Part shown: piece by piece, positions 7,899-19,082 of the stretch | Numbering within the stretch: the stretch's first letter is position 1 | Layout: the number at the start of each line of letters is the position of its first letter | From: a virus | Taxonomy: Duplodnaviria > Caudoviricetes | Reading direction: 5' to 3' (one strand) | Virus record (IMG/VR): IMGVR_UViG_3300020043_004612 | Span: 1-26,501 of that record | Length of the DNA: 26,501 nucleotides | Notes under the pieces: model-generated | The model's input: only the letters and a program-made list of their open reading frames with translations | The model's database searches: none | Told to the model about the DNA's origin: nothing | Translations under genes and position numbers: made by a program

Positions 7899-9209
7899 CT
7901 AACCCACAACATATTGTCCGTAACTTGGATTGAGTTCAAAATACATTCGCATCATAATAGCATCGGCAACGTCGGGAGAAATACCTTCGCGGTTCTTGAT
8001 AACGTCCTTCGGAGTTACCTGCAACTTACCGTCCACATCTGCGCGGTGTCGCTTAATCATTTCTAATTCACGAATGATTTGTTCTTTGCGCGTACTGGAT
8101 AAGATAGTGACTTTGTTTTCTTCAACGTATTGAGCGAGTTTGTAGTAACATTCGCTCTTTAAGTTTTGATATTGTGGGTGCTTTGGTTTAGATCCGTTCT
8201 GAAATCCTAAGCACTTCAAAAAGTCACAGACTCCTCCGCCCACCCCATCTTCATCCGCGATGATGTTTTGAAGTAGTATGTTGTGTTCTTTGGCTACAAC
8301 GCGTATCTTGTTCACGACTTCGTCTAACGCTGCTCTATTCAACTCAATTATATCAATGATAGTTAGACCTTCCCAAACGATTATAATCGTTCTATCCTTT
8401 CCAAATCGCGCAATGTCGGCTGTGATATACTTCTTGCCTTCATTGATTACTTCGTTGCGGAACATTCGAAGAAGATTCTCCGTGTTGAATAGTTTGTCGC
8501 TGTCGTCGTCGAACTCCCAGTTGCCTTCTAAAAGTCTTTTGCGGTCGTATTCGGGAAGTCTTCGCAACGATTCAATGTAAGCAACAGGAAGGAACGGATT
8601 GTCTTGTGGTAACGCTTGAACAAAAGCACGGTGTGAAGGTAGTTCGTTTCGGTTTGCTTTGATATAAAATTCATTGTACAACCAACCCTTCGATGGATTG
8701 CACGATAAGAAACCTTTCGGAATTAACCCGAACTCGTTCAACTTATAACGGCAACGAGAGTGAACTATGTTCACAGCTTTCTCTGTTACCTCTGCTACCT
8801 CGTCTATAAAATAATCGGTAATTTCCAACGATCCAAGTGAATCGAAGTTCGGATTTGAAGGATAAGCGAACAGGTCTTTCAATACAATTTCGCTTCCGTT
8901 GAAGAACTTAATTACATTCGTTTGTCCGTTGTAGGTGTAGTGTTTATCTGCAACCAAACCAAACTCACGCGCTGTTTCGAAAAAGGTGTTGAGCGTCGTC
9001 TTTTTCAGCGTATCTAATTTGCTTCGTCCAATAAGCGAACGCGTTCCAGCGTACTTTAAACGTCGTTGTATTTGCCACATACAACCGAACTTCGTCTTCC
9101 CACCACCTGCCGCGCCACCGTATAACAATTGCTCAACTTCACAATCGGTCGCAAGGTAGTTCAACGCTTCTATTTGACGCGGCAGGTATTCGGGTTTATA
9201 TGGTTTCAT
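7899..9209 (-). CDS. terL: Terminase large subunit
   Basis: Walker A LYGGAAGGGKT, Walker B YFIDE, coupling motif SCNP, RNase H-like nuclease ADIARFGKD and SPDVADA. Confidence 0.95.
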   Translation of the reverse strand: MKPYKPEYLPRQIEALNYLATDCEVEQLLYGGAAGGGKTKFGCMWQIQRRLKYAGTRSLIGRSKLDTLKKTTLNTFFETAREFGLVADKHYTYNGQTNVIKFFNGSEIVLKDLFAYPSNPNFDSLGSLEITDYFIDEVAEVTEKAVNIVHSRCRYKLNEFGLIPKGFLSCNPSKGWLYNEFYIKANRNELPSHRAFVQALPQDNPFLPVAYIESLRRLPEYDRKRLLEGNWEFDDDSDKLFNTENLLRMFRNEVINEGKKYITADIARFGKDRTIIIVWEGLTIIDIIELNRAALDEVVNKIRVVAKEHNILLQNIIADEDGVGGGVCDFLKCLGFQNGSKPKHPQYQNLKSECYYKLAQYVEENKVTILSSTRKEQIIRELEMIKRHRADVDGKLQVTPKDVIKNREGISPDVADAIMMRMYFELNPSYGQYVVG

Positions 9210-12263: not shown

Positions 12264-12290
12264 TGTATTGATTTTGATTCATTAAGTGTA

Positions 12291-12327
12291 ATAAAAGGGC
12301 ATTATGTCTGAGATAACACCCTTTTAT
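12291..12327 (-). terminator. Hairpin/terminator downstream of the SSB-like gene
   Basis: On the minus strand ATAAAAGGGTGTTAT pairs with ATAATGCCCTTTTAT, including G-U pairs. Confidence 0.65.
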
Positions 12328-12341
12328 AACACATTATTCAT

Positions 12342-17129: not shown

Positions 17130-17552
17130 ATGAGCAAGGAAGAAAAGAAAGAAACCAAACCACAAAACGCAACACTAAAAAAGACTGCTATGCTAAAGGC
17201 TCTCGAAAGCACTTTGGGCGTGGTAACTTCTGCGTGTGAGATTGTAGGCATAGACAGAACAACACACTATCGTTGGTTGCAAGAAGACGAAGACTACAAA
17301 GCGAAGGTTGAATCATTGTCAGACCTTGCTGTTGACTTCGCAGAAAGTCAGTTATTTGAATTGATTAAGGGAGCGCATCGCGAGGTGTCAACACCAGACG
17401 GTGAAGTAATCCGCATTCAAGACGCACCCAACACAAGTGCAACGATTTTCTATTTGAAGACACGAGGAAAGAAACGAGGGTACGTTGAGCGAAATGAAAT
17501 TGCAGGTGTGAACGATGCTCCGATACAAATAATAATAAACGATAAATTATGA
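17130..17552 (+). CDS. terS: Terminase small subunit
   Basis: HTH LGVVTSACEIVGIDRTTHYRW, helical D.AES.L..LI, ATIFYLKTRGKKRGY.ER.E and a C-terminal beta strand. Confidence 0.8.
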   Translation: MSKEEKKETKPQNATLKKTAMLKALESTLGVVTSACEIVGIDRTTHYRWLQEDEDYKAKVESLSDLAVDFAESQLFELIKGAHREVSTPDGEVIRIQDAPNTSATIFYLKTRGKKRGYVERNEIAGVNDAPIQIIINDKL

Positions 17553-17973: not shown

Positions 17974-18129
17974 ATGAGCGACAACAAATTAAACTTCTTA
18001 AAGTCTCAAATAGGAGCGTTTCATCCAGAGTGGACGAAGGAACAAATCGAGATGGAAGCAATACGCATATACAACGAAGCGAACACCATTGACGACGACG
18101 ACGAGGGTTGTCTTTATTGCGGATCATAG
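17974..18129 (+). CDS. 51-aa protein ending in DDDDEGCLYCGS, resembling the NrdA C-terminal redox tail (not in the ORF track)
   Basis: MSDNKLNFLKSQIGAFHPEWTKEQIEMEAIRIYNEANTIDDDDEGCLYCGS; A-rich leader; same strand as neighbours. Confidence 0.75.
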   Translation: MSDNKLNFLKSQIGAFHPEWTKEQIEMEAIRIYNEANTIDDDDEGCLYCGS

Positions 18130-18131
18130 TA

Positions 18132-18299
18132 CCTAATGCGCTACCCACAAGAACAGCGTCCCAGATTAGGGCATTTATTGTACCTACCTCTTGTTTCAAA
18201 GTAGAGTGCGTTGGACAGGGCGACCGACTGATTCCAACTAGCTGTGTTAGGTAGTAACTGCAACCGCTAACACAAAACACCAAGCTAAAGTCGGGTGTT
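18132..18299 (+). ncRNA. Candidate structured ncRNA: five tandem hairpins with a kissing loop
   Basis: Stems 18132-18170, 18171-18209, 18210-18238, 18243-18274, 18276-18299; loops ACAAGA and TCTTGT are complementary; several stem mismatches are G-U on the + strand. Confidence 0.6.
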
Positions 18300-18306
18300 A
18301 AATTTG
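18299..18306 (+). promoter_or_regulatory. Possible -7 element upstream of the tail operon
   Basis: TAAATTTG matches TAnnTTTG, 15 nt before ATG 18322; no -33 TTG. Confidence 0.3.
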
Positions 18307-18321
18307 AATAAATACGAATAA

Positions 18322-18906
18322 ATGAGTATAAAAGTTTCCATACCTGCCGACTACGCGAGTATCTCGCTGAAGCAGTACAAAGAGTTCAAGACAGCAAAGT
18401 CAGACGCTGACAAGTTGGTTGCGGTGTCTAACCTGTCAAAAGAAGACGTGCAGAAAGTACCAATGCAACACGTTCCTACCTTACTCGCTGCGTTCGACGA
18501 CACGTTGTTAAACGAGAGCGCAAAGTTCTTTGAGACGATTACTGTCAAGGATACTGACTTCGGGTTTATTCCTAACCTGTACGAAATCTCACTTGGCGAA
18601 CACGCAGACATCTCAACGTGGGCGGCAAACGTCGAAGAAAACATTGTGAAGATTATGAGCGTATTGTATCGTCCTATCGTTAAGCGCGTTGGTTCAAAGT
18701 ATCTCATCGAAGAGTACAACAGCACAAAAAGAGCAATGAGTGAGGAGTTAGTCGAGCAGATGACACTCGAACAATTTAATGGTGCGATGCTTTTTTTTTC
18801 GACTTTGCTCAACGAACTAAACAACACTTCGCTCGATTATTTGGAGACAGAGGTGAAGAAGTTGACGGAGGAATTGATGGAGCAATTGAAGACAGAGACA
18901 ACCTAA
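18322..18906 (+). CDS. Tail assembly chaperone (gpG-like, 0-frame product)
   Basis: FGFIPNL.EISLGE.ADI, IMSVLYRPI, GAMLFF; carries a T9 slippery site. Confidence 0.7.
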   Translation: MSIKVSIPADYASISLKQYKEFKTAKSDADKLVAVSNLSKEDVQKVPMQHVPTLLAAFDDTLLNESAKFFETITVKDTDFGFIPNLYEISLGEHADISTWAANVEENIVKIMSVLYRPIVKRVGSKYLIEEYNSTKRAMSEELVEQMTLEQFNGAMLFFSTLLNELNNTSLDYLETEVKKLTEELMEQLKTETT

Positions 18907-19082
18907 ATCAAGTGTTGGGACGATACGGTTGGTATCATCTTTTTATGGAAGCGTGCGGACGTGACATAACAAAATTAGATTTAATTACGGAAAAATCCGC
19001 GTGGAGTATATTTACATTTCTGACTTACCTAATAGACTACAATTATGTCGAACGTACAAAGCTACAACGCGCTTATAGATAG
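18798..19082 (+). CDS. -1 frame extension of the tail chaperone (gpGT-like)
   Basis: Open -1 frame after T TTT TTT: FDFAQRTKQHFARLFG...LGRYGWYHLFMEACGRDITKLDLITEKSAWSIFTFLTYLIDYNYVERTKLQRAYR, stop 19080-19082. Confidence 0.75.
   Translation, partial: FDFAQRTKQHFARLFGDRGEEVDGGIDGAIEDRDNLNQVLGRYGWYHLFMEACGRDITKLDLITEKSAWSIFTFLTYLIDYNYVERTKLQRAYR

What the first reader, a model, noticed from the sequence alone, without database searches (positions are those of the whole stretch)
18132..18299. Compact five-hairpin candidate ncRNA with a kissing-loop pair between terS and the tail operon
Seen: about 170 nt of relatively GC-rich intergenic DNA is almost fully tiled by stems. H1 CCTAAT-GCGCT/AGCGT-ATTAGG (18132-18170); H2 GCATT..CTAC/GTAG-AGTGC (18171-18209); H3 GTTGGA-CAG/CTG-TCCAAC (18210-18238); H4 TGTGTTAG/CTAACACA (18243-18274); H5 AACACC/GGTGTT (18276-18299). 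H1-H2-H3 abut with no spacer, suggesting coaxial stacking. H1 loop ACAAGA (18147-18152) is perfectly complementary to H2 loop TCTTGT (18189-18194). Several stem mismatches are G-U on the + strand, pointing to selection at RNA level. An alternative TACCTAA/TTAGGTA pairing (18130-18136 with 18247-18253) could switch folds. It is not a tRNA, lacks a hammerhead core, and is far more than a terminator. Inference: an undescribed phage RNA. Loop-loop pairing could be intermolecular, as in the similarly sized phi29 pRNA, or it could be a ribozyme or leader controlling tail genes.
Basis: partly seen in the sequence, partly recalled or inferred. Interest (0 to 1): 0.8.

Follow-up and report, generated by a model that had tools for sequence, protein, structure and literature searches.

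The report
Phage RNA decoys of AbiF antitoxin
The flagged stretch holds two adjacent phage RNA genes: a 47-base copy of the hairpin that bacteria keep in front of their AbiF anti-phage toxin gene, here with no toxin gene found and so likely a decoy that silences this defence, and an uncatalogued 124-base knotted RNA whose relatives are predicted to pair with a second copy of themselves and often carry such a hairpin as an arm.

Summary
All stems and complementarities exist as described. The stretch is two separable elements, and the H1-H2 kiss occurs only in this window.

Module A (H1, 18128-18174) is a covarying hairpin. In bacteria it is promoter-led and lies 9-70 nt before Abi_2/AbiF toxin genes (5 intact, 2 broken, of 12 places). 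It precedes 6 of 9 such genes. No Abi_2 gene was found in the window or in 90 viral records, so it is likely an orphan antitoxin decoy.

Module B (18177-18300) has 111 distinct cores in viral and metagenome contigs and no Rfam match. Its helices covary, it ends in an H-type pseudoknot, and the central tetramer of one loop is palindromic in 22 of 23 hexamers, which implies self-kissing dimers. This window's copy is the exception. Its P2 arm is antitoxin-like in 25 of 111 cores but reduced here.

Module B is missing from 11 near-complete sibling phages, so it is not a pRNA or tail leader. Expression, dimerisation and toxin binding are untested. Earlier-findings look-ups by sequence were empty.

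The parts
17974..18129 (+). 51-aa ORF ending in DDDDEGCLYCGS; the RNA cassette starts at its stop codon. Context, not part of the RNAs.
   Evidence: in 61 of the 78 sibling loci with upstream DNA this gene is followed by a 9-48 nt spacer and the 194-aa gene
18128..18174 (+). Outer stem 18132-18137/18165-18170, inner stem 18139-18142/18155-18158, 12-nt loop 18143-18154, 6-nt 3' bulge 18159-18164.
   Evidence: model R2 63.1 bits (the window is in the training set); covariation; inner 26 nt match 24/26 to the RNA before an Abi_2 gene in L768
18177..18300 (+). Module B: uncatalogued ~124-nt structured RNA (P1/P2, P3, optional P4, 3' H-type pseudoknot)
   Evidence: model R1 122 bits (in the training set)
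18180..18209 (+). P1/P2: GnRC/GYnC helix with a 1x1 mismatch and a bulged A at 18205, then the exchangeable P2 arm. The arm is reduced in this copy and antitoxin-like in 25 of 111 relatives.
18210..18238 (+). P3 (H3): 6-bp and 3-bp stems, 2-nt bulge, 9-nt loop 18219-18227. The hexamer 18221-18226 is palindromic in relatives (predicted self-kissing site); here CGACCG keeps four G-C pairs around two central A-C mismatches.
18239..18287 (+). Pseudoknot stem S1: UAGCU 18239-18243 pairs with AGCUA 18283-18287
   Evidence: 105 UAGCU/AGCUA, 3 AAGCU/AGCUA, 2 UAGCC/GGCUA, 1 UUGCU/AGCAA of 111
18244..18273 (+). P4 (H4): covarying stem with a variable loop; dispensable
   Evidence: absent from 2 of 111 cores and 3 of 10 stretches
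18277..18298 (+). P5 (H5, pseudoknot stem S2) closing the 12-nt loop RAGCUAAAGUCG (18282-18293)
   Evidence: 4 of 4 pairs with two-sided changes; the loop tail was fixed by my search patterns, so its invariance is partly built in
18322..18906 (+). 194-aa gene of unknown function starting 22 nt after module B. Context; the 'tail chaperone' label was not confirmed.
   Evidence: PHROG 32199 unknown function; only 'hypothetical protein' names

Best explanation
The stretch is a dispensable two-RNA cassette: module A is a phage copy of the hairpin that precedes AbiF (Abi_2, HEPN RNase) toxin genes in bacteria, carried with no toxin gene found, so it likely binds and silences the host toxin in trans; module B is a new pseudoknotted RNA whose relatives are predicted to homodimerise through a palindromic loop and which likely serves as a stable scaffold showing two antitoxin-like arms to the two-fold AbiF dimer. 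Shown by my calls: both folds (covariation), the link of A-type RNAs to Abi_2 genes, the lack of Abi_2 genes in the viral records searched, palindrome covariation, and abiF-like P2 arms in a subset of B. Inferred: transcription with the upstream gene or tRNA array and release by processing; toxin binding; dimer formation; two-armed binding. In this genome B's arm is reduced and its palindrome imperfect, so the decoy job would fall on module A, and B is either weakened or has a second job through its conserved core. Rough odds: A is an AbiF-antitoxin-type RNA 0.9; it works as a decoy 0.7; the B family self-kisses 0.85; arm display is B's main purpose 0.5.
For: Module A. R2 matches 12 places in 11 of 150 Bacteroidota genomes. 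An Abi_2 ORF or remnant begins 9-70 nt downstream in 7 of 12, 5 intact and 2 broken. Conversely, 6 of 9 strong Abi_2 genes in the same sample have an R2 match upstream and a seventh has Rfam abiF above cut-off; genome-level Fisher p = 8.5e-5. In a second phylum sample 2 of 3 hits precede Abi_2-like sequence. The L773 toxin matches PDB 8VZ6 at E 6e-61. No Abi_2 in the window, 0 of 40 B-bearing and 0 of 50 A-bearing viral records, or 401 viral loci by tblastn. Tandem A copies occur in several phages. Module B. Covariation. 22 of 23 distinct loop hexamers have a palindromic central tetramer, 13 of the 16 possible; column-shuffle null mean 2.0, maximum 9. Shifted registers give 0-3. About 28 tetramer changes against 2 changes of palindrome status on a tree built without the loop. 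Adjacent bases cannot pair within one strand; the same argument is used for OLE and GOLLD (10.1101/2024.12.08.627333, passages). The Rfam abiF model matched 8 of 36 B-bearing records at E <= 0.5, and in all 8 the best match lies on the P2 arm (positions compared by hand with locus coordinates). Module A itself is the arm in 3 cores. Literature: the abiF RNA neutralises its toxin in trans, and PbAbiF is a homodimer bound to two RNAs (PMC12373285, passages). A single-stranded bulge carries the inhibitory nucleotides (PMC12737573, passages). The precedent is pseudo-ToxI (PMC3475682, abstract).
Against: No expression, binding or dimer data. The window's H1 does not score on Rfam RF03085 at E <= 10, and the P2-arm scores are 13-22 bits against a cut-off of 37. 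5 of 12 bacterial A matches have no Abi_2 within about 1.5 kb. 86 of 111 B cores lack a clearly antitoxin-like arm (31 keep only a short hairpin plus bulge; 55 are reduced or other), yet they keep the palindrome and core, so display cannot be B's only function. The window's own hexamer is the sole non-palindromic type (3 of 93 cores; hexamer self-duplex -0.5 against -3.2 to -7.9 kcal/mol). The window's H1 has G where most relatives have the unpaired A (18138). Only 25 of the 90 viral records are at least 90% complete, so a toxin gene could lie outside the fragments. The phage's host is not established. Whether a P3-P3 dimer can place two arms on one AbiF dimer was not modelled.
Confidence: 0.6

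Rival explanations
1. Module A is an AbiF decoy, but module B has its own job. Its conserved P1 junction and pseudoknot loop bind another host protein, such as another RNA-inhibited defence nuclease, or protect the transcript. Antitoxin-like arms are passengers or the relic from which B arose.
For: The core and palindrome are kept in the 86 of 111 cores without a clear antitoxin-like arm. Arm class changes about 28 times on the tree. A and B share the GUAC...GUC base. ToxI-type antitoxins are pseudoknots (recalled, not tested).
Against: No solo pseudoknot or host counterpart was found: none of the 7 non-B viral stretches or the 4 of 400 Bacteroidota genome hits matched R1, and 0 of 151 Flavobacteriaceae-family genomes did (no positive control). 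Antitoxin-like arms recur with several different palindromes.
Confidence: 0.25
2. Module B is a self-cleaving or processing ribozyme that cuts polycistronic phage transcripts between genes and before tRNAs.
For: Compact pseudoknotted fold with invariant unpaired bases; always between genes. 20 of 21 downstream tRNA calls start 4-9 nt after P5 (relaxed ARAGORN threshold).
Against: No match to any Rfam ribozyme in the window or 20 homologous loci. Such spacing is ordinary in tRNA arrays (own knowledge). A covarying self-kissing loop and antitoxin-like arms are not explained.
Confidence: 0.08
3. Module A mimics 5S rRNA helix III and loop C and sequesters ribosomal protein uL5 or uL18.
For: Visible likeness to the 5S loop C of two Flavobacteriaceae-related genomes: CCC...GAAC loop ends and a similar 4-bp closing stem.
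Against: R2 gives no match to four 5S loci at E <= 10 with filters off. The bacterial copies track Abi_2 genes, not ribosomal protein genes.
Confidence: 0.04
4. One reading: one 170-nt RNA with an H1-H2 kiss acting as a phi29-like packaging RNA or a switch controlling tail genes.
For: The complementarity exists in this genome. The family does carry an intermolecular kissing signal, though at another loop.
Against: The kiss and the switch are window-only and at chance level. B is absent from 11 near-complete sibling genomes and from 61 of 78 sibling loci. Downstream neighbours vary.
Confidence: 0.03

Closest known systems
abiF RNA motif (Rfam RF03085), the antitoxin of AbiF/AbiD type III-like systems: RCd22 (PMC12373285, passages read) and PbAbiFr in PDB 8VZ6 (Zilberzwige-Tal 2025; not held, known only through PMC12373285, PMC12737573 and PMC13064643 passages)
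   Same: Stem, one unpaired base opposite a 6-nt bulge, short stem, 11-12-nt loop. Bacterial A-type copies are promoter-led and sit before Abi_2 genes. Several P2 arms of B carry the Rfam consensus loop verbatim (L121, L127).
   Different: The A-type loop (WCCC-N4-GAAC) is not recognised by RF03085 in the window. The phage copies have no toxin gene, often lie in tRNA arrays, and in B are fused to a dimerising pseudoknot scaffold.
Pseudo-ToxI repeats of phage PhiTE (PMC3475682, abstract and outline read)
   Same: A phage-encoded RNA resembling a host RNA antitoxin, with no toxin gene; likely works in trans against abortive infection.
   Different: Different toxin family (AbiF HEPN RNase, not ToxN). 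Natural and widespread (81 to about 160 viral stretches by pattern) rather than expanded in laboratory escape mutants. Single, tandem or scaffold-borne.
abiF sRNA call in cyanophage S-CREM1 (PMC9964418, passages read)
   Same: An abiF-motif RNA in a lytic phage, next to other ncRNA genes.
   Different: A canonical Rfam hit. The passages read give no decoy test, no A-type variant and no scaffold.
Self-kissing natural RNAs: OLE L9.3 and GOLLD L21a, ROOL (10.1101/2024.12.08.627333, passages); manA and EGFOA assemblies (10.64898/2026.07.01.735769, first fifth read); HIV-1 DIS loop (recalled)
   Same: A loop tetramer switching between palindromes signals cross-chain pairing. ROOL is also often near phage tRNA islands. 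The 9-nt loop of two purines, a hexamer and one base has DIS-like anatomy (recalled).
   Different: B is 103-186 nt, has no Rfam match to any of these, samples 13 of 16 tetramer palindromes, ends in an H-type pseudoknot and has an exchangeable arm.
phi29 pRNA (recalled)
   Same: Similar size; intermolecular loop pairing.
   Different: pRNA is essential and uses two different loops. B is dispensable among siblings and pairs one palindromic loop with itself.

Membership tests
abiF RNA (RF03085) / AbiF antitoxin: module A | Scores at or above the Rfam gathering cut-off (37 bits) | tested here: not met
   no match at E <= 10 in the window; two bacterial A-model hits reach 35.4 and 28.2 bits
abiF RNA (RF03085) / AbiF antitoxin: module A | Stem, asymmetric 1/6-nt internal loop, short stem and 11-12-nt loop, supported by covariation | tested here: met
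abiF RNA (RF03085) / AbiF antitoxin: module A | Homologues lie directly upstream of Abi_2/AbiF genes | tested here: met
   7 of 12 places; 6 of 9 genes; 2 of 3 in a second phylum
AbiF toxin-antitoxin system (complete locus) | Abi_2 toxin gene in cis | tested here: not met
   0 in the window (85% complete record), 0 of 90 viral records
abiF RNA / AbiF antitoxin: module A and P2 arms | Binds AbiF and neutralises its RNase toxicity | not testable with these tools
   needs co-expression or binding assays
abiF RNA (RF03085): P2 arm of module B | Match to the Rfam model | tested here: inconclusive
   best match of the record falls on the arm in 8 of 36 B-bearing records, at 13-22 bits, below cut-off; the window's arm is reduced and does not match
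Phage antitoxin-mimic RNAs (pseudo-ToxI kind) | Phage-encoded copy of a host RNA antitoxin without its toxin | tested here: met
Phage antitoxin-mimic RNAs (pseudo-ToxI kind) | Expressed during infection and suppresses abortive infection | not testable with these tools
   no RNA holder listed
Self-kissing homodimeric RNAs (OLE/GOLLD/DIS kind): module B family | Loop palindrome with compensatory changes at adjacent positions | tested here: met
Self-kissing homodimeric RNAs: the window's own copy | Palindromic loop core | tested here: not met
   CGACCG, one substitution from a palindromic core
phi29-type pRNA | Present in all members of the phage group | tested here: not met
Known self-cleaving ribozymes and other Rfam families | Match to a family model | tested here: not met
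Self-cleaving ribozyme (any) | Site-specific self-cleavage | not testable with these tools
   bench assay needed
5S rRNA loop C mimic: module A | Model of A recognises 5S rRNA | tested here: not met

The most novel reading that the evidence does not exclude
Module B is a phage-built RNA-only 'antibody'. A pseudoknot-capped scaffold dimerises through a freely drifting palindromic kiss and shows two exchangeable antitoxin-mimic arms matched to the two-fold symmetry of AbiF, the HEPN toxin ancestral to Cas13. The arms are swapped by recombination to track host toxin variants, and free A-type hairpins are the monovalent form of the same counter-defence.
Probability: 0.3. Interest if true: 0.92.

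Novelty: new variant of a known kind. Interest (0 to 1): 0.78.

Why it matters
No natural RNA counter-defence against AbiF turned up in ten literature searches, though the main AbiF paper could not be read. These data give matched pairs for a direct test in a laboratory strain: host toxin genes with their own RNAs, and phage copies 24/26 identical in the core. They also extend the abiF family beyond what Rfam detects. Module B adds a short natural RNA with unusually clear sequence evidence of self-association, plus a natural site for swapping arms. That bears on how small RNAs assemble and on RNA inhibitors of HEPN nucleases, including the Cas13 lineage.

Tried and rejected
Rfam: no hit in the window at gathering, none at E <= 10 over 600 nt, two unrelated weak hits over 106 nt. 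In 20 B loci and 20 phage A loci only tRNAs and weak unrelated families appeared. No tRNA in the window. Folding z-scores were uninformative. GenBank phages: no match for the region, the downstream protein, one other B or one A. Pattern 92 was too short to inform. The 15-mer also matches tRNA-Gly(UCC) genes; treated as coincidence. The genome-contig scan gave 2 hits, neither matching R1. B was not found in 151 genomes of a Flavobacteriaceae MAG's family (no positive control). Expression: no RNA holder listed; three runs marked probably DNA gave one short contig each, so no evidence either way. The 5S loop C idea was raised and demoted. The anticodon-loop-mimic idea was dropped, because the bacterial loops vary at those positions. 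A solo pseudoknot, as in ToxI-type arrays, was not found. In one search two 30-nt P3 loops were read one base out of register; the final statistics use only the 93 cores with a 29-nt P3, and the 18 others are listed. Fremin 2023 (PMC10690425): searchable supplements held none of six motifs, but the zips, large files and one table were not searched, so either module may be among its 8,495 unnamed candidates. Zilberzwige-Tal 2025 is not held and may already mention phage-borne copies. The notebook's '16 of 80' is a miscount; one search shows 17.

Full report
Setting. The window is an 85%-complete linear virus record with portal, terminase and lysozyme genes. The flagged stretch lies between a 51-aa ORF ending at 18129 and a 194-aa ORF of unknown function starting at 18322. 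The host is not established; Bacteroidota is my inference from where the closest module A copies were found.

Observation. All five stems, the 6-nt loop complementarity and the 7-nt alternative pairing are at the stated coordinates. Folding energy is no better than shuffles (z -0.8), and there is no Rfam or tRNA hit. The case therefore rests on comparison.

The stretch is an optional insert of two parts. Of 80 viral loci found through the downstream protein, 17 carry the H2-H5 part, 1 of them also H1, 61 have only a 9-48 nt spacer, and 2 lack upstream DNA. A model of H2-H5 (R1) finds it in 6 of 28 sibling records. It is absent from 11 of the 17 that are at least 90% complete; those 11 were chosen because they lack it at this site. 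An exact 20-nt H1 pattern hits 81 viral stretches, and a looser one about 160 by estimate. H1 is beside or within H2-H5 in 6 of 98 distinct contexts. I call H1 module A and H2-H5 module B.

The named kiss is not conserved. A 6-bp match among the five loops arises in 8.8% of shuffles. Each half occurs without the other in relatives, and the three other A+B tandems give 2-3 bp. The alternative pairing exists in 1 of 19 eligible cores.

Module B fold. Pattern scans of viral and metagenome contigs and R1 gave 111 distinct cores. In a 47-sequence alignment 97.2% of cells pair and 25 of 35 pairs show two-sided changes; slid controls pair 29-40%. P4 can be deleted. The linker UAGCU pairs with the P5 loop to form an H-type pseudoknot. 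With those bases freed in the pattern, three cores showed compensatory changes at two positions. The loop tail AAAGUCG was fixed in every pattern, so its invariance is partly built in.

Module B self-kissing loop. Among 93 cores with a 29-nt P3, the loop hexamer takes 23 forms; 22 have a palindromic central tetramer and 14 are fully palindromic, covering 13 of 16 possible tetramers. Column shuffling gives a mean of 2.0 and a maximum of 9 in 100,000, and other registers give 0-3. A rough tree built without the loop and the P2 arm needs 28 tetramer changes but 2 changes of palindrome status; the tree-free minimum is 13 changes among 14 words. The central pair joins adjacent bases, which cannot pair within a strand, so pairing must be between molecules. 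Kretsch et al. use the same argument for OLE and GOLLD (10.1101/2024.12.08.627333, passages). The one exception, CGACCG, is the window's own, shared with L010 and L042.

Module B context. 21 cores are followed by an ARAGORN tRNA call at relaxed threshold (20 of them 4-9 nt away), 5 by tRNA-like sequence, 72 by an ORF and 13 by neither. B was not found in the bacterial genomes searched.

Module A is an AbiF-antitoxin-type RNA. Its two helices covary at 12 of 12 pairs. Model R2 hits 12 places in 11 of 150 Bacteroidota genomes. There the hairpin follows a TAnnTTTG-like promoter element (motif recalled) and ends in a U run. An Abi_2 gene starts 9-70 nt downstream in 5 places, a broken one in 2, and none is seen in 5. 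Of 9 strong Abi_2 genes in the same sample, 6 have an R2 match upstream, 1 has Rfam abiF at 44.9 bits, 1 shows a similar hairpin by eye and 1 shows none. In 150 genomes of a Burkholderiales MAG's phylum, 2 of 3 weaker hits precede Abi_2-like sequence. The L773 toxin matches PDB 8VZ6 at E 6e-61. The window's inner 26 nt match 24/26 to the RNA before the L768 toxin gene. Against formal membership, RF03085 does not score the window.

The phage copies appear to be orphans. No Abi_2 match was found in the window, in 40 B-bearing records (16 near-complete), in 50 A-bearing records (9 near-complete), or by tblastn in 401 viral loci. The control genomes rang in the family searches.

Link between the modules. 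The Rfam abiF model matched 8 of 36 B-bearing records at E <= 0.5, and each best match falls on the P2 arm, at 13-22 bits (positions checked by hand). By regular expression 22 arms are abiF-type, 3 are module A itself, 31 keep a short hairpin plus bulge and 55 are reduced or other (a looser rule gave 25, 3, 31 and 52). The same palindrome occurs with different arm classes, which suggests exchange. The window's arm is reduced.

Mechanism. AbiF is a homodimeric HEPN RNase held off by two copies of its RNA, and a two-motif antitoxin works in trans (PMC12373285, passages). A single-stranded bulge carries the inhibitory bases (PMC12737573, passages). A phage making the RNA without the toxin would keep AbiF inhibited during infection, as PhiTE pseudo-ToxI does for ToxIN (PMC3475682, abstract). 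That is my reading of module A (about 0.7). A self-kissing B would show two arms, matching the toxin's symmetry; this is inferred and unmodelled (about 0.5), and the many arm-less B copies argue for a second function of the core. In this genome the decoy role would rest on A.

Novelty. Antitoxin mimicry by phage RNA is known for ToxIN, and an abiF hit was noted in cyanophage S-CREM1 with no decoy test in the passages read (PMC9964418). A review notes a phage sk1 hairpin that inhibits AbiF without resembling the antitoxin (PMC13064643, passages). Ten searches showed no description of either module or of widespread orphan abiF copies. The Fremin 2023 alignments and the Zilberzwige-Tal 2025 paper could not be read and may overlap. 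Look-ups of this scan's earlier findings by sequence and place were empty, and the word look-up for abiF decoys returned nothing on AbiF.

Verdict. Real and interesting, but not as first drawn: a likely RNA counter-defence cassette made of an orphan AbiF-antitoxin-type hairpin and a new self-kissing pseudoknotted RNA family. New variant of a known kind; interest 0.78.

Noticed in passing
window 18791-18799 and 18912-19082: A run of nine T late in the 194-aa gene, followed by a 56-aa ORF just after its stop; resembles the frameshift layout of tail assembly chaperones (recalled). Reading frames not tested.
   Followed up: no
window 7899-9209 (-) and 17130-17552 (+): Large and small terminase genes are about 8 kb apart and on opposite strands.
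   Followed up: no
L084:424-579, L125:458-570, L133:303-391, L124:311-392, L050:1884-1979: tRNA-like genes near or right after module B keep D- and T-arm ends but have swollen or odd anticodon domains.
   Followed up: no
downstream of module B in L121, L127, L472, L551; and of B or A in L094, L125, L161, L370, L381: Two further conserved non-coding sequences recur in these arrays; possible additional unknown RNAs.
   Followed up: no
L348, L349, L364, L369, L372, L738, L751: Two different module A variants in tandem within about 100 nt, as expected of a multi-copy decoy array.
   Followed up: partly
L771:1429-1547: A bacterial locus with an A-type hairpin followed by a second, Rfam-type abiF hairpin, just before a type I restriction R gene and with no Abi_2 gene nearby.
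   Followed up: no
L644:1501-1610, L645:468-576: 5S rRNA helix III and loop C visibly resemble module A's inner hairpin; R2 does not score it.
   Followed up: partly
L104, L108, L138, L141, L146: The 15-mer around the P5 loop also occurs in phage tRNA-Gly(UCC) genes; probably coincidence.
   Followed up: partly
L791:361-420: Five tandem copies of the 12-nt P5 loop sequence without the rest of module B; possibly a coding repeat.
   Followed up: no
window 12281-12337: 28-nt imperfect inverted repeat with 1 nt between arms in an intergenic gap.
   Followed up: no
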